DNA of 64,000 bases, from assembly GCA_963769935.1 (NCBI GenBank), contig CAVYNY010000009.1, positions 128,001 through 192,000 of the forward strand, read 5' to 3'. The notes under the pieces are model-generated. The model saw only the letters and a program-made list of their open reading frames with translations. It searched no databases and was not told the DNA's origin. A program made the translations under genes and the position numbers. Positions 13,766 through 54,312 of this stretch are shown piece after piece (within the stretch, counting starts at the first letter, position 1; each line of letters begins with the position of its first letter). Origin of the DNA: an uncultured delta proteobacterium (GTDB taxonomy: Bacteria > Desulfobacterota > Desulfobacteria > Desulfobacterales > JAFDCJ01).

Positions 13766-15649
13766 TTATCCATGGACTTTGACCAGCATGGTCAAACCGA
13801 GCTTTTCAAGCTCGGCCTCATCCGGCCGGCCGCTGTCGGGGTTCCAGCCCATGGCCTGCCGGTATTCCCGGGCCAGATTGTCGATATCCAGGGTAACGCC
13901 GGCCACAGGGCCTTCCTGCTGGGGCGGACGACCAGCCATGCGCTCCGGCAATTTGAAGTCGGCCGGCTGAATGCCTTCGCGGACATTGAAGCTTTGCCGC
14001 AGGGTCTGGATGCGCGCACCGGTGGTCAGGACATCGGCCACAGAAAGGTTCCATCCGGTCACGGCATTTAAAAAATCGACAAAGGGAAAATTGCCGAAGA
14101 ACATCAGCGGCATGAGACATAGACCCGCGCTGGCGCCGGCCTGCAGATAGCTGGATGCCGTGGCGCTCATCGGTCCCTTGCCGGTGTAAGCGTAGCGTTC
14201 AAATTGTTCGATCTTCAACTCGGCATACGGCGCAAAGGCGCCGGGGCCGCCGTCGATGCGCGCCATGGGGGCGGCCGTGTGGCGCCCCGGCGTGGGGTCG
14301 CACACAAAACCGGTGCCCCGGCTAGGCAGAAAAAGGGCATTATGCAGCCCGGGCTCCTGACCGCCCACGTGCATGGCATACTTTTCGGCGCCGCCGCCGA
14401 TTTTCCGCGCGGCAATCCTGACCCCGTCCGCCAGGATATCGCCGAAGCCTTCCCGGGCGGCCATTTTGCCCACCATGGTGATCATGGCTTCGGCATTGCC
14501 CCAGGTCAGGGGCACGCCGTCCATGTCGGCCTCGGAAATGATGCCGTTTTCAAAGCACTCCATGGCAAAGGCCAGGGCCGTGCCGGCCGAGATGGTGTCC
14601 AGGCCGCTGCGGTTGCACATTTCGTTTAACTTGATGATGGCCTCAAAATCGTCGCACAGGCACATTGTGCCGAAAGCGCCGATGGTTTCATACTCGGGCT
14701 TGTGGGTTTCACCCACCGGGTACTTTCCGCCGGTGACATTGAAAATGCCGCCGCAGGCAATCGGGCAGTTGGCACAGCCGTATTTGCGGCTCTGGTGTTG
14801 AAGGACGGCATCGGCATCGGCGATTTTTTCCAGGTTGGCAAAGGACTGGGTGCCGGTCATTTGCCAGTTTTTGACCGGGGTGGCGCCGGAGGCCACCAGC
14901 CCCGCAGTCAGTCCGCAGGTGCCGTGTTTTATCAGTATGTCGGCAAATCCTCCCATGGCACGCATTTCGGCAATAAAATCCTTGCGTAGCCTCTCCAGAG
15001 CTTGGTTATCGGCCACGGCCGCCTTGCCGGTGCCGCGCACCGCCACGGCCTTGAGCTTTTTGGCGCCCATCACGGCCCCCACACCGGAGCGGGCGGCCGC
15101 CCGGCCCCGGTCATTGATGATGCCGCTGATCAGTGACAGCTTCTCCGAAGCGGGTCCGATGCAGGCAATCCGGATTTTCCTGTCGCCGGCCGCGGTCTGG
15201 ATGGCGGTTTCGGTTTCGACAGTGTCTTTGCCCCAGAGCTGGGCGGCATCCTTTAATTCGATCCTATCATCCGTGATCATCAGATATTTGGGAGAAGCGG
15301 CCGCGCCGGAGACAAAAACCGCATCCCAGCCGGCGGCCTTCAGTTCGGCGCCGAAATACCCGCCGGAGTTGGCATCCCCCCAGCCCCCGGTCAAAGGCGA
15401 CTTGCAGACCGCCATGTAGCGTCCGCCGGTAGGTGTTTTGGTCCCGGTCAGCGGCCCCGTGGTGAAGCCCAGTATGTTCTCCGGCCCCAGCGGGTCGACA
15501 CCCTTTTTCTGGCGCTCAAACAAAATCCGCGCCCCCAGACCTTGCCCGCCGATGAAATCCCGCGCCAGGGTTTCATCCAATTTCTCAGTTATAATTTCAC
15601 CTTTTGTCAAATCGACAAATGCAATTTTTCCTGCGTATCCGCCAGCCAT
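13766..15649 (-). CDS. Aldehyde ferredoxin oxidoreductase family protein (tungsten-type)
   Basis: GGYAGKIAFVDL, KSPLTG, GPASEK..RAAARSGVGAVMGAKKLKAV, CANCPIAC, PEYET and GLDTIS motifs. Confidence 0.93.
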   Translation of the reverse strand: MAGGYAGKIAFVDLTKGEIITEKLDETLARDFIGGQGLGARILFERQKKGVDPLGPENILGFTTGPLTGTKTPTGGRYMAVCKSPLTGGWGDANSGGYFGAELKAAGWDAVFVSGAAASPKYLMITDDRIELKDAAQLWGKDTVETETAIQTAAGDRKIRIACIGPASEKLSLISGIINDRGRAAARSGVGAVMGAKKLKAVAVRGTGKAAVADNQALERLRKDFIAEMRAMGGFADILIKHGTCGLTAGLVASGATPVKNWQMTGTQSFANLEKIADADAVLQHQSRKYGCANCPIACGGIFNVTGGKYPVGETHKPEYETIGAFGTMCLCDDFEAIIKLNEMCNRSGLDTISAGTALAFAMECFENGIISEADMDGVPLTWGNAEAMITMVGKMAAREGFGDILADGVRIAARKIGGGAEKYAMHVGGQEPGLHNALFLPSRGTGFVCDPTPGRHTAAPMARIDGGPGAFAPYAELKIEQFERYAYTGKGPMSATASSYLQAGASAGLCLMPLMFFGNFPFVDFLNAVTGWNLSVADVLTTGARIQTLRQSFNVREGIQPADFKLPERMAGRPPQQEGPVAGVTLDIDNLAREYRQAMGWNPDSGRPDEAELEKLGLTMLVKVHG

Positions 15650-15787
15650 GGAATATCTCCTGCTGTTTTGATAATACCGATTTAAATTCGAACTCATTGT
15701 GCCTAAATCAATTTGTTAAAATAGTCAACAATAACAATAGGGTTGAAAGTTAGACACAGAAGGGATACTATCGAAAAGAAATGATAA

Positions 15788-44660: not shown

Positions 44661-44963
44661 CTATTCGACGGTCACTTTGTGTCCATGCAAGCTGTCCTTG
44701 AAAGGAACGCTGATTCGCAACAGTCCGGAATCAAATTTTGCCTTGGCGCTCTCACGCTTAACCTCATGGGCAAGCGTATAGCAGTTATCATATCGAAAAT
44801 CCTCGGCTTCGGCTTTGATGCAAAAACCTTTGTCACCCACGTCGAGATCAACGCTTTCTTTTGATGCGCCCGCCAAATCCACCCGTATATCCAAACCGGT
44901 ATCATCGTCATTGTGGTTGACATTGATCATGGGAACAACAACTCGTTTTGAATTTTTGTCCAT
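44661..44963 (-). CDS. Hsp20/alpha-crystallin small heat-shock protein
   Basis: VDLAGASKE.V.L and AKAKFDSGLLRISVP motifs; ATG at 44963 with SD. Confidence 0.88.
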   Translation of the reverse strand: MDKNSKRVVVPMINVNHNDDDTGLDIRVDLAGASKESVDLDVGDKGFCIKAEAEDFRYDNCYTLAHEVKRESAKAKFDSGLLRISVPFKDSLHGHKVTVE

Positions 44964-45157: not shown

Positions 45158-47341
45158 ATGACTGAAATCAGGCGATCTTATTGCGGTTTATGTCATCCCC
45201 GTTGCGGTCTCCTTTTGGAAATGGAAAACGGCCGGATTGTCAAAGTGAAAGGGGACCCGGATCATCCCATATCAAAGGGACGAATTTGTCAGAGAGGCAG
45301 TTTGATGGCTGATCATGTGGATCATCCGGATCGCATCAATTACCCGCTCAAGCGCAAGGGCGGCAAGGGAGCCGGACAATGGCAGCGCCTGACATGGCAT
45401 CAGGCCCTGGATGAAGTCGCTAACAAGCTAGGGGATCTTCGCGAACACTACGGCGCTGAGACCCTGGCTTTTACGCATGGCACCAAGCGAACCTATCACT
45501 GGGATGAACGCCGATTTTTCAACCTGTTCGGGTCACCCAATATCTGCGGAGCAAACAATATCTGCATGTGCCCGAGCCAGGCGGTAGAATTTGCAACTTA
45601 TGGCGGCTTCACGTGGGGTGATGCGATGCATACCAAATGCGTGGTTTTATGGGGGCATGCACCATCCAAGTCCAGCCCCATCGGCCTTTATCCCATGATC
45701 CTTCAAGCCCAGAAAAATGGGGCGCAACTTATCGTGGTCGATCCCCGCCGAATCCCGGAGGCGGAAAGAGCGGATATGTGGCTTCCCATACGGCCCGGGA
45801 CCGATGTGGCCTTGATGCTCGGATGGCTGCGGATTATCATCGAAGAAGACCTTTATGACACCGATTTTGTAGCAAACTGGACGATCGGATTTGAAGATCT
45901 CAAGACGGCCGCCGCCGAATATACGCCTCAAAAGGTTGCCGAGATTACCTGGCTGACACCCGAACAGGTGGTGAGTTCAGCCCGCTGCTACGCCACGACC
46001 AAACCGGCCATGATCACCTGGGGTTTCGGCCTGGACAAGCAGGGCGTCAACGCGACCCAGGCGGCAAGGGCCAGATGTTGTCTCAGAGCGGTGACCGGCA
46101 ATTTGGATATCCAGGGCGGGGAGCCGCTGGGCTGGAACGAACCTGTCGGCAGAATCATCGGCGACGAGGAAGTAGAATTCAACACTGCGCTTTCAAATGA
46201 GCAGCGGGCCAAGCAGTTGGGTGCCGATCAATATCCTTTCTTCGGTTTTCCGGGGTGGTCGCGCAACAGGGAAGCCAATCGCCGCCTGCCCATAGAATAC
46301 ATGCATCCACCCCATGCCGACATGACCTGTGTCGCCCATGCGCGAAGTGTGTTTGACGCCATGATTACCGCCAAACCCTATCCGGTTAAGGCGGCCATCT
46401 CGGTAGCCAGCAATCCGTTGCTTTCCCTGCCGAATGTGCGCCATACCTACGAGGCATTGAAGCAGTTGAAACTTTATGTTGTCGGTGAATTTTATCTCAC
46501 GCCCTCGGCCGCTCTGGCAGATTATGTTTTTCCGATATGTTCCACAGTCGAGACGACCGAATTGTGGCTGACCCCCATGTTCTGTGTGGCTTGTCCCCGC
46601 GGTGTTGAGCCGCTGTATGAACGGCGCAACACCTATGATTTCTGGCGCGGCCTGGCGCTGAGACTTGGGCAGCAAGATGACTGGCCATGGAAGACGGTGG
46701 ATGATGTGTGGGACTACCGGCTCGCTCCGGCAGAACTTACCTTCAAAAAGCTGCTTGAACAAAACGGCCTTTTCGGAAGGCCGCAATACAAGCGTTATGA
46801 AAAATTTGGTTTCGGTACACCGTCAGGTAAAGTTGAGCTTCGCTCCACAACCTTCGAGCAGCTGGGTTGCGAACCCTTGCCGGTATATCGTGAACCTTTT
46901 CACAGCCCCTTGGGTAATTCGAAACTAGCCGAATCCTTCCCCCTGGTTCTCATTTCCGGGAGCCGGTTTATGCCGATGTACCAATCCGAACAGCGCCAAA
47001 TTCAGGCGGCCAGAAAAAAAAGACCCGACCCGCTTCTGACGCTTCACCCGGATACGGCGGAAGCCCTTGGCCTGGCTGAAGGTGAATGGGTCAAGGTGGA
47101 ATCACCTCAGGGGAGCATTCGGATGCGTCTTCATCTTTCCGATATGGTTGACCGGCGGATGGCAGATGCAGATCATGGGTGGTGGTTTCCCGAACGTCGC
47201 GAGCAGGACCCCGAACTATTTGGAGTTTTTGAATCAAACGCCAATATTCTCTGCCCTGACGGATCGGAATTTTGCAGTCCGGAGATCGGAAGCTGGCCGC
47301 ATTCGGCGCTGCTGTGCCGGGTGAGCAAAGAAAGAAGCTGA
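45158..47341 (+). CDS. Mo/W-bisPGD oxidoreductase, acetylene hydratase-like clade
   Basis: CGLCHPRC..IC [4Fe-4S] motif, RRFFNLFGSPN, QLGADQYPF, PYPVKA, TPSGKVEL and HGWWFPE motifs; 727 aa, no Tat signal. Confidence 0.88.
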   Translation: MTEIRRSYCGLCHPRCGLLLEMENGRIVKVKGDPDHPISKGRICQRGSLMADHVDHPDRINYPLKRKGGKGAGQWQRLTWHQALDEVANKLGDLREHYGAETLAFTHGTKRTYHWDERRFFNLFGSPNICGANNICMCPSQAVEFATYGGFTWGDAMHTKCVVLWGHAPSKSSPIGLYPMILQAQKNGAQLIVVDPRRIPEAERADMWLPIRPGTDVALMLGWLRIIIEEDLYDTDFVANWTIGFEDLKTAAAEYTPQKVAEITWLTPEQVVSSARCYATTKPAMITWGFGLDKQGVNATQAARARCCLRAVTGNLDIQGGEPLGWNEPVGRIIGDEEVEFNTALSNEQRAKQLGADQYPFFGFPGWSRNREANRRLPIEYMHPPHADMTCVAHARSVFDAMITAKPYPVKAAISVASNPLLSLPNVRHTYEALKQLKLYVVGEFYLTPSAALADYVFPICSTVETTELWLTPMFCVACPRGVEPLYERRNTYDFWRGLALRLGQQDDWPWKTVDDVWDYRLAPAELTFKKLLEQNGLFGRPQYKRYEKFGFGTPSGKVELRSTTFEQLGCEPLPVYREPFHSPLGNSKLAESFPLVLISGSRFMPMYQSEQRQIQAARKKRPDPLLTLHPDTAEALGLAEGEWVKVESPQGSIRMRLHLSDMVDRRMADADHGWWFPERREQDPELFGVFESNANILCPDGSEFCSPEIGSWPHSALLCRVSKERS

Positions 47342-47520
47342 GAAGCTGGGAAGCTGGGAAGGTGAGAAGGTAAGAAGAGCAGAAGATCAGAGGATCAGAG
47401 GATAAGAAGGTGGGAGGTTGGGAAGTTGAGAAGGTGAGAGGTTGCGAACCTTTTTTCAACTCAATCAACCAATCAACCCAATCAACCCAATCAACCCAAT
47501 CAATTATGAACTACAAACCT
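47335..47520. repeat. 9-mer tandem arrays (G-rich, then C-rich)
   Basis: gaagctgg/gaaggtga arrays followed by caacccaat x3. Confidence 0.92.
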
Positions 47521-47555
47521 TTTATCTGACACTTGATCAGTTTATGGAGGAAAAA

Positions 47556-49475
47556 ATGTTGGCGGATGTATACGGGTGGTGCGGCAAAATACTCGATGTC
47601 AACCTATCCGAGGGCCGCATTAACGCACTAATGACCATGAATTATGCCGATCGGTTCCTGGGCGGGCGCGGGATTGCCACGCGGATTTATTGGGAGACGG
47701 TCGGGCCTGGTGTGGGAGCCTTTGATCCGGAGAATCGCCTGATTTTCATGACGGGTCCGTTGGGGGCGACCGGCGCCCAAGGGGCTTCCCGTTTTGAAGT
47801 GGTGGGAAAGTCTCCCATGCTGTTGCCGGAGGGGTTCTGCTATGCGAACCTGGGCGGATTTTTCGGTCCCTACCTGAAAAGAGCCGGCTACGACGGTATT
47901 GTCGTCTCCGGACGATCCGAAAAACCGGTCTATCTCTGGATCGAGGACGGCCAAGCCCGCCTTTTGGATGCCTCGGCGCTCTGGGGCAAGGGTGTTTATG
48001 CGGTTCGGGACACCTTAAAAACACTGCATGGGGAAAATGTCCGATTTGTGACCACCGGCGTGGCCGGTGAAAATATGTGCCGCAGTGCCAATCTGATGAC
48101 CGACAATGAAGGCAGCGGCACCGGTGGGTTCGGCGCCGTGATGGGATCGAAAAACTTAAAGGCCCTGGCGGTATTCGGTACCGGGACCCCTTTGGTAGCC
48201 GACCCTACTGAGTTAAAGGAGCTCAATCGCCTGGCAGTCCATTTGAGCCGGCGCGACCCTATGTTCGTGCCGTTCCCGCCAGACCAGATTCGCCGCACCG
48301 GCAGGGCCTCCTGCTATCAATGCGGCCTTGACTGCATCATGCGAAATTCCTACCGGACCGCATCCGGCAAGAACGTTGTCCGAAAATGCCAGGCCATGTT
48401 TGTTTATTTTCCATGGGTCATGCGAAGACCGGCCGAGCCGATTGAAACCGCCGTTGATGCCACCGGTATTTGCAACGATTTGTCAATCTGCACGATGGAA
48501 ATGCAGAATATCATTCGGTGGCTGAATACGTGCGACAAGGCAGGCTACCTTACCGCTAAAGAGACCGGCCTGGACATGGCCAAGCTTGGCACGCGAGAGT
48601 TTTTTGAAAATCTCGCCAATATGATCGCCCGCCGGCAGGGATTCGGCGATGTTTTGGCCGAAGGTCTCCTGCGCGCCGGGAATAAGCTCGGTGCACAAGC
48701 CACAGCGCATTTCTCAAACGAGGTTTCCGGCGTCGGTGACGGGGCCACTTATTCTGCCCGCGAATATCTTATGAACGGCCTGCTGTATGCTCTGGAACCT
48801 AGACAGCCGATTGCGATGCTGCATGAAATAAGCCGCATCATGGGATTTTGGGTCATGAATCAGTCCGATCCGAAATCTTCACCGGTAACATCCGAGGTTT
48901 TTCGGGCCGCGGCCGCAAAATTCTGGGGACACGAAAAGGCATGGGATTTGACAACCCATGAAGGCAAGGCCGCAGCGGCGGTCAAGATTATGGACCGTAC
49001 CTATGCCAAAGATAGCCTACTGTTGTGCGATTCCGGCTGGCCGCTCATATTTTCCTGGAACACGCCGGATCATGTGGGAGATCCGGGGTTGGAAAGCCGG
49101 ATATTCACCGCCGTCACCGGTGTTGAAACCGATGAGACCGCTCTCAATCAGTACGGTGAACGAATATTCAACCTGCAACGAGGGATTCTTTTGCGGGAAG
49201 GCCGGCAGCCAAAAGACGATGATGTGCCCGCAAATTTTAACTTCACTGATCCGGTTGAAACGGTCTTTATGAATCCGGATGTGATCGTGCCCGGGCCGGG
49301 GGAGGAGGTCGTCAGCCTCAAAGGCCGGGTCCTGGATCGCAGCGTATTCGAAGAGATGCGCAAGGAATTTTATGAACTGCGGGGCTGGGACGCTGAGTCG
49401 GGTCTGCAAAAGTCCGAAACCCTCGAGCGTCTCGGATTGTCGGACCTCGTTAGCGGCGGTGTGACGACAGGATGA
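47556..49475 (+). CDS. Aldehyde ferredoxin oxidoreductase family protein (divergent)
   Basis: GWCGKILDVNLS, FLGGRG, KSP, GFGAVMGSKNLKA, CYQC..DC and YELRGWD motifs; SD GGAGG. Confidence 0.9.
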   Translation: MLADVYGWCGKILDVNLSEGRINALMTMNYADRFLGGRGIATRIYWETVGPGVGAFDPENRLIFMTGPLGATGAQGASRFEVVGKSPMLLPEGFCYANLGGFFGPYLKRAGYDGIVVSGRSEKPVYLWIEDGQARLLDASALWGKGVYAVRDTLKTLHGENVRFVTTGVAGENMCRSANLMTDNEGSGTGGFGAVMGSKNLKALAVFGTGTPLVADPTELKELNRLAVHLSRRDPMFVPFPPDQIRRTGRASCYQCGLDCIMRNSYRTASGKNVVRKCQAMFVYFPWVMRRPAEPIETAVDATGICNDLSICTMEMQNIIRWLNTCDKAGYLTAKETGLDMAKLGTREFFENLANMIARRQGFGDVLAEGLLRAGNKLGAQATAHFSNEVSGVGDGATYSAREYLMNGLLYALEPRQPIAMLHEISRIMGFWVMNQSDPKSSPVTSEVFRAAAAKFWGHEKAWDLTTHEGKAAAAVKIMDRTYAKDSLLLCDSGWPLIFSWNTPDHVGDPGLESRIFTAVTGVETDETALNQYGERIFNLQRGILLREGRQPKDDDVPANFNFTDPVETVFMNPDVIVPGPGEEVVSLKGRVLDRSVFEEMRKEFYELRGWDAESGLQKSETLERLGLSDLVSGGVTTG

Positions 49476-51174: not shown

Positions 51175-54100
51175 ATGACAGATAAACAAGCTAAATTTCT
51201 ATTCGACAAGCGAGATCACGAGCTGATCCGGATCGTCAATAATGTGCAGCAGGTCGAAAGCAGCGCCCGATTTGCCCGCAAGTTCTATTTCCCCTATCTT
51301 CATCCCCATGGTATCAAGGAGATGACCGAAACCAAGGGCTTGCGCGCGGCCTACGCTGTAGCGCAACTGCTCAATTCGCTCGAGATCGGCGGTGTGGATG
51401 ACCGTATCAATGCCCTGCGCTCGCTGCGCCATGAAGTGATCGACATCGCCGAGGGTCCGCTGCCCAAAAACACGGCCCGGGTGCTGCTCCAGATCATGAA
51501 AGACCTGGTGCGCGCCCAAGGGGATTACCGCAGGCAGCTGGAGCTGGCCCATGATTTCCGCCGGACGGCCTCGGGCAAACCGCGCCTTGTCCGCCGGCAT
51601 TTGCGACGCTACCACCTGCTGGAAATGCCCGAGGAGTGGAATCAGATTGCCTTTGACGACCACGTTCATGATGCCAACACCAAGGGCCGCAAATCCTCCA
51701 CTCACCTGATAATGGACGCCTGGATCAAGGGGATCCGACGGCTGCGCGTTATTCACTACAACTATATCGAGCCGCGGTTTGCCGCGGAACTGCTGGAAGC
51801 GGCGAGAATATTGGAAATCGACATCCGGATCGGCATTGAGTTTTCCAGTCGATTTCGCGATAAGTACGTCCAGCTCATCTGGGTCCCCCGGGGGTTCACC
51901 GATGCCCAGTCGTTTTTGTGCTTTCTGGCCGAGCCGCCCGTCATGCAGCTCATGCAAGCCGGACGCAGCGCCTCCCGTTACCAGCAACAGTATGTCATGG
52001 ACCTGCTGCGAAAATTCAACGAGGTGCACCGACTGGAAATCAATCAGGTCTTCGGCGTCGATCTGCCCCCGATCAGGGAGGACGAGTTTCTGGCCTTTGT
52101 CGGCATCGGGCAGAAATCCAAACTGCATCTGTCGAAATTCATTCACAACCAATTGCTGCAGGTTCTACAGAAACGGGCCGCGGCGTTGCGAGACGAGTAT
52201 CTCCAGGCGGATGGCGACCGACGCCGGCAAATTTCCGAGTGGATCCAGGCCACGAATGCGCAGGACCTGGAATCCGTGGTGGATGCCTACCTGGAGCCGG
52301 AAAAAAACGCGGGGATCGGCAATCCGGACACCCCCGTTGATGCACCGGACTGTCCGGAGCTGCTGCTTCTGTCCCCCCTCGAATTGCTGAGCCGGCTGGC
52401 CCAGTTCCACGCGGGATACCGGGTAACCCTGAATTTGTCCAATCTGGTGGTTGAAGACGTACTGGAACTGATTTATGACTGCCAGGGCATGATCACGCGC
52501 CTGGAAATCTTCAATCTCAAGGATTATGCCGCCGGCAAGACCGCCCATGTTCCCGATATCAGCCGGCTGATGCAGGCCGTCAACGAAGGCAGTGCAATTC
52601 ATCTCAAACAGGTTACCCGCGACATCATTGACCGGCTGATCCGGTCCGGTTCTGCTGAAAAAAAAGTGCAGATCGATAAATTAACGACGATTTTGCATGA
52701 TATCGATACCCTCAAATCCTTTTACATTGGAAAACCACTGAAGGCCCGCATCGGCAGTGACTCCACCGGGCGATCGAGCCGCATGCACGGCATGGGACTG
52801 GCAATTAAAGAAACCCTGCCCAAAAGAGCCCAACGGTCGATCAAGCGCGACCGCATGCAGGATGTACGGGAGATCATTCCCATCCGGATGATCGCTTGCA
52901 AGCAACTGACATTCCTTCCCAAAAAAGGCTATATGCCGACCAGGCAGGTATTGTACTGGCTGGCGGCTCTGCTGCCGATCAACGGCTGGCTGGGTTTGAC
53001 GCGCCGGGAAGGCTGGGAGGTGGAACCGGCAGCCACCCGCATGGCGGACCCGGGCAACATTGTAACCCTCGGGGGCGTTCAAAAGAACATCGTCAACGGG
53101 CTTTATCTGAACCCGCCGGAAGCCGCCGACCGGCGCATTCGATTTCGCTGGCGCAATCTCAACTCCCATCTGCAGAATGCGCTGAAAGTGGTCATCGGTT
53201 TCATTCCGGCGTTTGCAACCTTCGCCCTGACCAAGGACTGGTGGGTGTTGGCCTATTGCGGGGCGTTTATCTGGTTCGGCATTACCGGCCTGCGCAATAT
53301 TCTGCAGTCGGTTCTGGGCGGCGGCGGTTTCAAGCGCTCGCCCCTGCTCAATTGGAACGACTACATCAGCTGGAGCCGCATCACGGACTCCTTGATGTAC
53401 ACCGGTTTCTCAGTGCCCCTGTTGGATTATGTCGTCAAAACTTTGATCCTCGACCGGGCCTTCGGCATCACCACGTCAACCAACCCGGTGCTGCTCTACA
53501 CGTTCATGGCGGTGGCCAACGGCATTTACCTCTCCAGCCACAACCTCATCAGGGGGCTATCCAAAGGTGCCGTCTATGGAAATTTCTTCCGCAGTATTTT
53601 GTCCATTCCCATTGCCGTCGGTTTGAACATGGTCATCGGAATAATTCTGGCGGCCGGGGGCGTCGCCGGCGTCGATCTGGAATTGCAGAAATGGGCGGCC
53701 ATCATTTCCAAAGCCGCCTCGGATATGGTTGCCGGCGTCATCGAGGGCCTGGCCGACCGCCACAAAAACATCCAGAACCGCCTGCGCGAATACACAGGCA
53801 AGTTTGCCCAGCTGTTCGACATCTATGCCCAGCTGGAGCTGCTCTACCCGGATGTGCGGACTTTCCGAATTCTGGATAGACCCGACAATCCGCAGCGCCG
53901 GACCAGCGCTGAGGCGCGCGACCTGGAAAAAATCATTATGATCCACGCCCTGGATCTGCTCTACTTCTGGTTGTACCAGCCGCGTTCGCGCACGGCACTG
54001 CGCCAGTTCCTGCACACCTTGACCGAAGACGAGCGCCACATCCTGGTCAGCAGTCAGTTTACGTTGCTGCGGCACCGCGAGATCAGCCAGCTTTTTATCG

Positions 54101-54312
54101 ACGGCATCCTGGGCGACAACTTCCCGCGTCCCCTGTCTTTTTATTTATCGCGCTACGAAGACTACCTGAAAGATGTCAAACGCCTGATTTTCGACGAGCA
54201 GCTGAACGATTCAGGCCCCTCCGCCCGGCCGGGTGTCCCCGTTGAACCTGCCGGTGCAGCGACTGCGGTCAAGGACTACTGCGAGGCATCCGTGCGCCGC
54301 ACGGCGAACTAA
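51175..54312 (+). CDS. Large uncharacterised protein with PHP-like phosphoesterase motifs and C-terminal membrane domain
   Basis: DDHVHD..TKG, IGIEF, LEIFN and IGSDS motifs; hydrophobic segments at aa ~670-850. Confidence 0.75.
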   Translation: MTDKQAKFLFDKRDHELIRIVNNVQQVESSARFARKFYFPYLHPHGIKEMTETKGLRAAYAVAQLLNSLEIGGVDDRINALRSLRHEVIDIAEGPLPKNTARVLLQIMKDLVRAQGDYRRQLELAHDFRRTASGKPRLVRRHLRRYHLLEMPEEWNQIAFDDHVHDANTKGRKSSTHLIMDAWIKGIRRLRVIHYNYIEPRFAAELLEAARILEIDIRIGIEFSSRFRDKYVQLIWVPRGFTDAQSFLCFLAEPPVMQLMQAGRSASRYQQQYVMDLLRKFNEVHRLEINQVFGVDLPPIREDEFLAFVGIGQKSKLHLSKFIHNQLLQVLQKRAAALRDEYLQADGDRRRQISEWIQATNAQDLESVVDAYLEPEKNAGIGNPDTPVDAPDCPELLLLSPLELLSRLAQFHAGYRVTLNLSNLVVEDVLELIYDCQGMITRLEIFNLKDYAAGKTAHVPDISRLMQAVNEGSAIHLKQVTRDIIDRLIRSGSAEKKVQIDKLTTILHDIDTLKSFYIGKPLKARIGSDSTGRSSRMHGMGLAIKETLPKRAQRSIKRDRMQDVREIIPIRMIACKQLTFLPKKGYMPTRQVLYWLAALLPINGWLGLTRREGWEVEPAATRMADPGNIVTLGGVQKNIVNGLYLNPPEAADRRIRFRWRNLNSHLQNALKVVIGFIPAFATFALTKDWWVLAYCGAFIWFGITGLRNILQSVLGGGGFKRSPLLNWNDYISWSRITDSLMYTGFSVPLLDYVVKTLILDRAFGITTSTNPVLLYTFMAVANGIYLSSHNLIRGLSKGAVYGNFFRSILSIPIAVGLNMVIGIILAAGGVAGVDLELQKWAAIISKAASDMVAGVIEGLADRHKNIQNRLREYTGKFAQLFDIYAQLELLYPDVRTFRILDRPDNPQRRTSAEARDLEKIIMIHALDLLYFWLYQPRSRTALRQFLHTLTEDERHILVSSQFTLLRHREISQLFIDGILGDNFPRPLSFYLSRYEDYLKDVKRLIFDEQLNDSGPSARPGVPVEPAGAATAVKDYCEASVRRTAN

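What the first reader, a model, noticed from the sequence alone, without database searches (positions are those of the whole stretch)
45158..49475. Acetylene hydratase-like enzyme with His at the catalytic Asp13 position, paired with an AOR
Seen: a 727-aa stand-alone bisPGD enzyme with no Tat signal and no Fe-S or membrane partner genes. It has C9-x2-C12-H13-x2-C16 and an NNICMC segment, and is followed by an aldehyde ferredoxin oxidoreductase. Established, from recall: Pelobacter acetylenicus acetylene hydratase is ~730 aa with Cys9/Cys12/Cys16, catalytic Asp13 and a Cys tungsten ligand, and it makes acetaldehyde. Inference: this homolog probably has different chemistry or substrate, and may produce an aldehyde oxidised by the adjacent AOR. 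That would make it a candidate undescribed two-step W/Mo pathway.
Basis: partly seen in the sequence, partly recalled or inferred. Interest (0 to 1): 0.7.

Follow-up and report, generated by a model that had tools for sequence, protein, structure and literature searches.

The report
His-type acetylene hydratase relative, chance neighbour
This is an intact, uncharacterised relative of acetylene hydratase, predicted to bind molybdenum or tungsten, whose histidine is the commonest residue at that position among its relatives and whose aldehyde-oxidoreductase neighbour is not kept in related genomes, so it is likely a lone redox enzyme of unknown substrate rather than half of a new two-step pathway.

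Summary
The 727-aa gene has C9/C12/H13/C16/C44, Cys136 at the place of acetylene hydratase (AH) Cys141, no Tat motif and no Fe-S partner gene. AH is its closest solved structure (TM 0.94, 34% identity). An AOR-family gene follows after 214 bp.

The interpretation mostly fails. His is the commonest residue at position 13 among relatives (26 of 115; Asp 6), and the dehydroxylases Cldh and Dodh have it too. The protein belongs to a tight His13 orthogroup near AH but outside the Asp13 branch, and it also lacks Trp179. So 'not AH chemistry' is right but unsurprising.

The pairing is not conserved: 0 of 32 ortholog loci carry this AOR, 0 of 41 informative AOR-ortholog loci carry an AH-like gene, none of 60 relatives has both orthologs, and a 99%-complete genome has the enzyme with no AOR found.

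Best reading: a stand-alone cytoplasmic oxo/hydroxyl-transfer oxidoreductase, substrate unknown. A second non-redox hydratase is not excluded (about 20%). The scan noted a related AH-like enzyme on other DNA before.

The parts
45158..47341 (+). Gene for a 727-aa AH-fold bis-pyranopterin (Mo/W) enzyme, His13 orthogroup (P0001)
   Evidence: GGAGG site 9 nt upstream
45182..45205 (+). Cys9-x2-Cys12-His13-x2-Cys16 motif, predicted [4Fe-4S] ligands; His13 codon at 45194-45196
   Evidence: His in 103 of 121 orthogroup rows, the other 18 lack the N-terminus
45287..45295 (+). Cys44 (fourth predicted cluster ligand) and Arg46 (at the place of AH Lys48)
45563..45571 (+). Cys136 (predicted Mo/W ligand, aligned with AH Cys141), Met137 and orthogroup-invariant Cys138
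   Evidence: (each 121 of 121)
45677..45679 (+). Pro174, in place of AH Trp179 (hydrogen-bond partner of Asp13 in AH)
   Evidence: role of Trp179 from PMC7970554 passage
46019..46021 (+). Trp288, equivalent to AH Trp293, retained
   Evidence: (121 of 121)
47342..47555 (+). 214-bp spacer made of short simple repeats found elsewhere in the genome; no terminator-like site called in it
   Evidence: 23 other sites match parts of it
47556..49475 (+). Gene for a 639-aa AOR/WOR-family protein (P0002) of an uncharacterised subfamily; adjacent but not a conserved partner
48312..48335 (+). AOR Cys253-x2-Cys256-x3-Cys260 motif, predicted [4Fe-4S] ligands (role recalled from the AOR family)
   Evidence: sequence
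44661..44960 (-). Divergent Hsp20-family gene; context only, not found in the 36 loci

Best explanation
The gene encodes a single-subunit protein with no Tat motif and a predicted acetylene-hydratase fold, predicted to hold a Cys136-bound Mo or W bis-pyranopterin centre and one [4Fe-4S] cluster, which likely catalyses a redox oxygen or hydroxyl transfer on a soluble organic substrate and likely has no dedicated link to the neighbouring AOR. Shown: the residues, membership of a tight His13 orthogroup near AH but outside the Asp13 branch, the lack of any conserved neighbour, and the non-conservation of the AOR pairing. Inferred mechanism: electrons from a soluble ferredoxin or flavin carrier encoded elsewhere pass through the cluster and Arg46 to the metal. 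The reduced metal takes an oxygen from the substrate (reductive dehydroxylation or oxide reduction, or the reverse), with His13 as second-shell proton donor where AH has Asp13. The substrate is unknown; an aromatic or heterocyclic compound is the best lead. The AOR is one of about 13 in this genome and probably came to lie next to it by local rearrangement. My odds for the parts: not AH 0.95, no dedicated AOR pathway 0.85, redox rather than hydration about 0.6.
For: Position 13 is hypervariable: 19 residue types among 115 cluster representatives, His 26 and Asp 6. The reductive dehydroxylases Cldh and Dodh, and the row labelled eadh1, have His at this place (supplement of PMC7028382). The Asp13 branch keeps Asp13, Asn144, Trp179, Trp293 and Asp298 in 42 of 42 rows; the His group has His13, Pro139 and mostly Pro174. 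Within the AH-proximal clade, P0130 (42% identical) is fused to an NAD(P)/flavin/Fe-S module. A 69% ortholog (G401) is followed after 205 bp by co-oriented NuoE/F/G-type genes. A 50% relative lies in an operon with UbiD, hydantoinase A/B, ADH and xanthine-dehydrogenase-type genes. AH is described as the only non-redox Mo/W enzyme known (PMC12096430). Pair not conserved: 0 of 32 ortholog loci, 0 of 41 informative AOR loci, no shared genome among 60 relatives, and G460 (99% complete) has the ortholog but no AOR candidate.
Against: No Fe-S partner is encoded nearby: 1 of 32 ortholog loci has a same-strand ferredoxin-motif ORF within 1.5 kb. By contrast, several more distant AH-superclade paralogues do have one, and known dehydroxylases are described with Fe-S subunits (PMC11887054). 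That fits a non-redox enzyme like monomeric AH. AH is closer to this protein than the dehydroxylase-type sequences are. The redox-linked contexts are single cases. No neighbourhood points to a substrate. AOR genes occur near 3 of 32 ortholog loci against 0.7-1.9 expected (P 0.04-0.29), so a slight excess is not excluded.
Confidence: 0.5

Rival explanations
1. A second non-redox branch of the AH fold: a stand-alone hydratase or lyase in which His13 replaces Asp13 as the acid/base that activates metal-bound water, acting on a larger or polar substrate (an activated alkyne, nitrile, enone or heterocycle).
For: Same predicted fold and length as AH. In the AH-proximal clade. Trp293 and Asp298 equivalents are kept. 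No Fe-S partner in 31 of 32 loci. The orthogroup has its own invariant residues (80 positions).
Against: Asp13 is reported essential in AH (D13A inactive, D13E tolerated; PMC12096430), and its partner Trp179 is also lost. His13 occurs in reductive dehydroxylases. A clade member is fused to an NAD(P)-linked redox module. Stand-alone ferredoxin-fed enzymes of this architecture exist (cyanobacterial NarB; recalled, from no call).
Confidence: 0.22
2. One reading: the enzyme makes an aldehyde that the adjacent AOR oxidises, as a dedicated two-gene W/Mo pathway.
For: Same strand, 214 bp apart, no terminator-like site called between them. In L018 an unrelated AOR and ThiS lie directly upstream of an ortholog on the same strand. 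In G018 a distant paralogue (38%) is followed by an Fe-S gene and a 40% relative of this AOR. Tungsten AORs oxidise acetaldehyde in Pelobacter carbinolicus (PMC4275255).
Against: 0 of 32 ortholog loci have an ortholog of this AOR; 26 of them have at least 2.3 kb downstream. 0 of 41 informative AOR-ortholog loci (29 clusters) have an AH-like gene. In 60 relatives the two orthologs fall in disjoint genomes, 2 versus 7. In 13 genomes with the ortholog or its 50% relative, no full-length match to this AOR exceeds 46%. The spacer is made of genome-wide repeats. The genome has about 13 AOR genes.
Confidence: 0.07
3. It is a true acetylene hydratase with His doing the job of Asp13.
For: AH is the nearest solved structure and nearest characterised relative found. 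Loose similarity would annotate it so; one 79% ortholog is named 'Acetylene hydratase' in NCBI.
Against: 34% identity to AH. Outside the Asp13 branch, whose members score 607-696 bits against AH versus 443. Two paralogues in its own genome score higher against it (466 and 464 bits) than AH does. Asp13 and Trp179 are absent.
Confidence: 0.03
4. A general repair or detoxification S-/N-oxide reductase, or a sulfur-transfer enzyme, used by sediment anaerobes under stress.
For: Scattered neighbours include Hsp20 and an MsrP-type gene (this window), DinB, glyoxalase, flavin reductase, MarR, TspO and FmdE. The extra invariant Cys138 lies next to the metal ligand. An AH-related module does sulfur transfer in ergothioneine synthase (27% to AH; PMC9516567).
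Against: None of these neighbour families was seen beside more than two ortholog loci. The gene is patchy (8 of 400 phylum genomes). Curated BisC, DmsA and PhsA models score far below their cut-offs.
Confidence: 0.18

Closest known systems
Acetylene hydratase of Syntrophotalea (Pelobacter) acetylenica, PDB 2e7z
   Same: Predicted fold (TM 0.94, Z 50.9), length, N-terminal four-Cys cluster motif, Cys metal ligand, Trp293 and Asp298 equivalents, no signal peptide.
   Different: 34% identity; Asp13 to His, Trp179 to Pro, Lys48 to Arg, Ile142 to Met, Gly143 to Cys, Asn144 to Pro. Separate branch from the Asp13 clade.
Catechol dehydroxylases of Gordonibacter (Cldh, Dodh) and Eggerthella (Dadh, Hcdh, Cadh)
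   Same: Same bis-MGD superclade, described as closest to AH and widespread in anaerobic aromatic degraders including Desulfobacula and Desulfomonile (PMC7028382). Cldh and Dodh have His at the Asp13 place.
   Different: They fall outside the AH-proximal clade. They are described with Fe-S (and membrane) subunits. Cldh and Dodh lack the first cluster Cys in the usual spacing; Dadh, Hcdh and Cadh have Gly there and twin-arginine-like leaders.
Metallopterin-dependent ergothioneine synthase (MES), Caldithrix abyssi
   Same: AH-related module with non-AH chemistry (sulfur transfer; PMC9516567 passages).
   Different: Only 27% identical to AH and fused to a cysteine desulfurase; no such fusion here.
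AOR/WOR family (Pyrococcus furiosus AOR 1aor; 9mqx; YdhV-like NCBIfam PRK09849) for the neighbour
   Same: AFOR_N and AFOR_C domains and a Cys-x2-Cys-x3-Cys motif.
   Different: Weak C-terminal similarity to every solved member and far below the model cut-off. Only 5 of 92 WOR clades have a defined role (PMC13328260), so aldehyde oxidation is assumed, not shown.

Membership tests
DMSO-reductase (MopB, bis-PGD) superfamily | Molybdopterin oxidoreductase, Fe4S4 and dinucleotide-binding domains and fold | tested here: met
   Pfam PF00384, PF04879 and PF01568 above cut-off; fold matches
AH / catechol-dehydroxylase superclade | Closer to AH than to any other solved bis-PGD enzyme; Cys metal ligand at the 141 position | tested here: met
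   443 versus 258.5 bits; Z 50.9 versus 37.1; Cys136 in 121 of 121
AH-proximal clade | Groups with the Asp13 branch to the exclusion of dehydroxylase-type sequences | tested here: met
   Support 100, 100 and 99 in three trees. AH itself was not available as a row; Asp13 proxies were used. Branching order inside the clade differs between trees.
Acetylene hydratase (strict) | Asp13 in the cluster motif | tested here: not met
   His13; Asp in 116 of 118 proteins of the AH-side search; feature as given in PMC12096430
Acetylene hydratase (strict) | Trp179 / Trp293 / Trp472 second shell | tested here: not met
   Trp179 is Pro174; Trp293 is kept as Trp288; Trp472 may be Trp470 but the alignment is ambiguous by two columns
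Acetylene hydratase (strict) | Membership of the Asp13 branch | tested here: not met
   Separate branch; 35-42% identity to 42 Asp13 rows
Acetylene hydratase (strict) | Tungsten dependence and acetylene-to-acetaldehyde activity | not testable with these tools
   The host has a TupA-like ORF and a ModA match, so either metal is possible
Catechol dehydroxylases (Gordonibacter or Eggerthella type) | Groups with Cldh/Dodh or Dadh-type catalytic subunits | tested here: not met
   Cldh/Dodh-type rows were fetched by motif; the Dadh type was represented by one motif-matched proxy
Catechol dehydroxylases (Gordonibacter or Eggerthella type) | Adjacent Fe-S (and membrane) subunit genes | tested here: not met
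   None in the window; 1 of 32 ortholog loci has a same-strand ferredoxin-motif ORF nearby
Catechol dehydroxylases (Gordonibacter or Eggerthella type) | Reductive removal of a catechol hydroxyl | not testable with these tools
   Needs an enzyme assay
Conserved two-gene AH-like + AOR module | Synteny of the two orthologs across genomes | tested here: not met
   0 of 32; 0 of 41; 0 of 7 extended regions around 62-79% AOR orthologs
Conserved two-gene AH-like + AOR module | Co-occurrence in genomes | tested here: not met
   Disjoint among 60 relatives; no AOR candidate in G460. Many genomes are incomplete.
Conserved two-gene AH-like + AOR module | Co-transcription in the host | tested here: inconclusive
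   No terminator-like site called in the spacer; no expression data were available
AOR/WOR family (neighbour) | AFOR_N and AFOR_C domains | tested here: met
AOR sensu stricto (neighbour) | Catalytic Glu/His pair of P. furiosus AOR (recalled) and aldehyde oxidation | tested here: inconclusive
   Those regions did not align to solved AORs

The most novel reading that the evidence does not exclude
The His13 orthogroup is a second non-redox branch of the acetylene hydratase fold: a partner-less W/Mo hydratase or lyase with a His13/Cys138-remodelled water-activating site and a new substrate in sediment Desulfobacterota. It would be only the second non-redox Mo/W enzyme and a natural Asp-to-His test of the disputed AH mechanism.
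Probability: 0.2. Interest if true: 0.7.

Novelty: new member of a known kind. Interest (0 to 1): 0.22.

Why it matters
As found, this is one of many uncharacterised members of a clade already described as large and unexplored. Two modest uses remain. First, it shows that 'acetylene hydratase' labels given by similarity cover several branches with different second-shell residues. That bears on surveys that read the whole AH family as evidence of acetylene use (PMC10100899, passages; PMC7858054). Asp13 plus Trp179 is a simple filter. Second, the orthogroup is highly conserved, single-gene and has no maturation or partner genes nearby, so it is a tractable target for finding new Mo/W chemistry. 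If it proved to be a hydratase it would bear directly on the unsettled AH mechanism.

Tried and rejected
Conserved neighbourhood: all-against-all clustering of ORFs in 36 loci found only enoyl-CoA hydratase (5 loci), acyl-CoA dehydrogenase-like (4) and adenylate-cyclase-like (3) families, at varying distance and strand, named by eye from their sequences. Pfam on 109 of 134 flanking ORFs showed no recurring partner. Rejected as a guide to substrate.

The promoter/terminator scan was at chance level (9 versus 6.0 and 8 versus 8.7).

AH as a tree row: a search from an Asp13 protein did not list AH among its best 120, so proxies were used. The first mixture-model tree did not finish; FastTree and LG+G4 quick trees were used instead, without bootstrap or AU test.

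The ESM Atlas gave only generic molybdopterin clusters. The longer-protein search gave one 38% fusion to NRPS-like domains and no close fused form (weak evidence). No complex prediction was run, because binding is not claimed.

Papers not held: PMC3067604, PMC7190893, PMC1805521. PMC13101534, PMC13170169 and bioRxiv 2025.01.17.632430 had nothing relevant in the passages found. The 677-aa TTG start of the AOR was rejected. 'His13 is a rare substitution' was rejected.


Full report
VERDICT. The protein is a real, uncharacterised relative of acetylene hydratase (AH) and almost certainly not an AH. The two points that made it look special do not hold: His13 is the usual residue among relatives, and the pairing with the AOR is not conserved.

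1. WHAT IS IN THE SEQUENCE. Window 45158-47341 (+) encodes 727 aa with Cys9, Cys12, His13, Cys16, Cys44 and Cys136 and no Tat motif. Pfam finds the three bis-PGD domains; no curated NCBIfam family reaches its cut-off. The best solved relative is AH 2e7z (443 bits; next 258.5). A model from a 112-sequence alignment (pLDDT 96.4) matches 2e7z at TM 0.94 and Z 50.9 against 37.1. The AOR-family gene most likely runs 47556-49475 (639 aa). The 214-bp spacer consists of simple repeats, parts of which match 23 other sites in the genome; no terminator-like site was called in it. Flanks are Hsp20, an MsrP/sulfite-oxidase-type gene, an amidohydrolase and an MBL hydrolase. The genome (8.0 Mb, 96.7% complete) gives 20 six-frame ORF hits to the enzyme and 14 to the AOR, self and fragments included. 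Two paralogues score 466 and 464 bits, higher than AH does, and one of them also has His13. A TupA-like ORF and a ModA match are present, so the metal cannot be assigned. The closest orthologs come from Desulfobacterales MAGs.

2. IS HIS13 SPECIAL? No. Of the 150 best 50%-cluster representatives, 135 of 600-900 aa were aligned and 115 keep Cys9/12/16. Among these, position 13 is His 26, Gly 14, Tyr 13, Ser 7, Asp 6, Asn 6 and 13 other residues. The sample is ranked by similarity to the query, which may favour His. In the supplementary alignment of PMC7028382 (N-terminal excerpts seen), Cldh, Dodh and eadh1 have His after the second Cys, and Dadh, Hcdh and Cadh have Gly. Asp13 marks its own branch: 116 of 118 new proteins from a search with an Asp13 representative have it. 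In 42 of 42 sampled rows that branch keeps Asp13, Cys141, Asn144, Trp179, Trp293 and Asp298 equivalents (40 of the 118 plus two proxies). The query's orthogroup (120 proteins at 71-91%) has His13 in all 102 that include the N-terminus. It keeps Trp288 and Asp293 but has Pro at the Trp179 place (111 of 121). Trp179 is described as hydrogen-bonded to Asp13 in AH (PMC7970554 passage), so both partners changed together. Asp13 is reported essential, with Glu tolerated and Ala inactive (PMC12096430 passages). The orthogroup also has 80 near-invariant positions that are rare in distant relatives, among them Arg15, His107, His114, Cys138, Lys294 and Cys476. This points to one specific, conserved reaction.

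3. WHERE IT SITS. Three trees (72 rows FastTree; 30 and 39 rows IQ-TREE quick LG+G4; no bootstrap) agree on three things: an AH-proximal clade (support 100, 100, 99), an Asp13 branch (100) and the His13 group (99-100). Cldh/Dodh-type and Dadh-type rows fall outside. Two trees make the Asp13 branch sister to the rest (94, 95); the third leaves the order open. AH itself was not a row. Its proxies score 607-696 bits against 2e7z versus 443 for the query. Cldh/Dodh-type rows came from an Eggerthellaceae-centred motif search; one begins with the same residues as Cldh in the supplement.

4. IS THE AOR PAIRING CONSERVED? No. Of 36 loci, 32 are orthologs at 71-91% with enough length to judge; two partial and two distant loci were left out. 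None of the 32 carries an ortholog of this AOR. Three carry an unrelated one (29-35%): L001 convergent, L009 6 kb away on the other strand, and L018 upstream on the same strand with ThiS between, which looks operon-like. 26 of the 32 have at least 2.3 kb downstream. Chance expectation is 0.7-1.9 loci for 13-30 AORs per genome (P of 3 or more 0.04-0.29). In the other direction, 55 of 66 metagenome loci are AOR orthologs at 60% or more; 41 have the 5' end and at least 500 bp upstream (29 clusters at 95% DNA identity); none has an AH-like hit. Among 81 AOR loci tested there were two hits: the L001 context, and G018. In G018 a distant paralogue (38% to the query, 74% to the host's C38 paralogue) is followed by an Fe-S gene, a 40% relative of this AOR and MoaF. 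It was the only AH-like gene in 14 extended regions around relatives of this AOR. Among 60 related genomes, close orthologs of the enzyme occur in 2 (G046; G004, split) and of the AOR in 7, with no overlap (many are incomplete, and at most 18-20 candidates were scored per genome). Across the phylum 8 of 400 genomes match at E 1e-230 or better (two candidates scored per genome; three appear to duplicate loci). In 13 genomes carrying the ortholog or its 50% relative, the best full-length match to this AOR is 46% or less. G460 (99% complete) has no AOR candidate at all. A looser tendency of Mo/W genes to cluster, or a local co-transcription in this host, is not excluded.

5. HOW IT MOST LIKELY WORKS. 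Shown: architecture, ligand residues, and solitary genes with no recurring partner. Inferred: Mo/W-bis-PGD bound by Cys136, one [4Fe-4S] cluster, and cytoplasmic location. For redox chemistry: His13 is shared with reductive dehydroxylases; a 42% clade member is fused to an NAD(P)/flavin/Fe-S module; a 69% ortholog is followed by co-oriented NuoE/F/G-type genes; and AH is described as the sole non-redox case. For non-redox chemistry: 31 of 32 loci have no same-strand ferredoxin-motif ORF within 1.5 kb, unlike several more distant paralogues, and AH is the nearest characterised relative. I put a ferredoxin- or flavin-fed oxo/hydroxyl transfer on an organic substrate at about 0.5, a hydratase/lyase at 0.22, a repair or sulfur-transfer role at 0.18, the dedicated AOR pathway at 0.07 and true AH at 0.03. 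The only substrate lead is a 50% relative (G240) in an operon with a sigma-54 activator, nitroreductase, two UbiD, hydantoinase A/B, ADH and xanthine-dehydrogenase-type genes (the second UbiD and later genes named by eye). That suggests aromatic or heterocycle catabolism. It is one locus and a different sub-branch.

6. WHAT IS KNOWN. PMC7028382 (section 11, passages, two supplements) describes a large uncharacterised group related to AH and catechol dehydroxylases in anaerobic aromatic degraders. PMC12096430 (passages) says AH forms a subfamily with uncharacterised proteins and treats Asp13 as specific to it. PMC10100899 (passages) counts 452 AH-family hits in genomes and MAGs. PMC13328260 (passages) says only 5 of 92 WOR clades have a defined role. 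PMC11887054, PMC9516567, PMC7858054, PMC4275255 and PMC7970554 were seen as passages only. Eight searches found no study of this orthogroup or of an AH-like/AOR pair. The library lacks most subscription journals, three primary AH papers were not held, and a paper on the active site of a catechol dehydroxylase was seen only as a reference; any of these may already discuss position 13. Supplements of the bioRxiv urolithin preprint were not seen.

7. SCORES. Novelty: new member of a known kind. Interest 0.22. Most novel surviving reading: a second non-redox AH-fold enzyme (probability 0.2, interest 0.7).

Noticed in passing
L176 and L179 (G240:C18): A 50%-identical His13 relative lies in a tight operon: sigma-54 activator, nitroreductase, UbiD, AH-like enzyme, hydantoinase A/B, Zn-ADH, xanthine-dehydrogenase-type subunits and a second UbiD. 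It looks like an undescribed anaerobic aromatic or heterocycle degradation cluster.
   Followed up: partly
L180 (G018:C1570:16000-33000): CoA ligase, AH-superclade enzyme (His13), 4Fe-4S protein, AOR and MoaF in one run, beside a tannase/feruloyl esterase, an alcohol dehydrogenase and an ABC transporter. A better candidate for an AH-like/AOR pathway (lignin-monomer type) than the window's pair.
   Followed up: partly
G000:C38 about 85000-95000 (own genome, outside the window): A His13 AH-superclade paralogue with a downstream Fe-S gene and an upstream regulator lies next to genes that look like protocatechuate dioxygenase subunits and a cycloisomerase (named by eye). A candidate two-subunit catechol dehydroxylase in a sulfate-reducer lineage.
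   Followed up: partly
P0128, P0136, P0273-P0390: A large Asp13/Trp179/Trp293 branch extends far beyond known acetylene fermenters, with named members from Nevskia, Bradyrhizobium and Paraburkholderia. These are better candidates for AH-type chemistry than the query.
   Followed up: partly
P0130, P0156, P0214, P0391: AH-superclade modules fused to an NAD(P)/flavin Fe-S domain, a ferredoxin, an [FeFe]-hydrogenase large subunit, and NRPS-like domains; single sequences that may include assembly artefacts.
   Followed up: partly
window 13766-15697 (-): A second AOR-family gene in the same window; a third lies elsewhere on the contig.
   Followed up: no
window 47342-47555: Intergenic simple repeats (purine-rich units and a 9-bp C/A-rich unit) recur 12-43 times per tested motif in the genome for 6 of 8 motifs, against 1 or fewer expected; function unknown.
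   Followed up: partly
window 51175-54312 (+): A 1045-aa ORF with no Pfam match, with a His/Asp-rich motif near residue 160 and a hydrophobic C-terminal part.
   Followed up: no
L106, L107, L109, L121: A 44-45% sister branch of the enzyme is preceded in four same-genus genomes by a URO-D-fold (MtaA/CmuA-like, label recalled) gene, a conserved pairing worth a look (Pfam run on one of the four).
   Followed up: partly
L120/L129 (G004), L161, L162: Some orthologs in other genomes show an internal stop or split; not examined for sequencing error versus decay.
   Followed up: no
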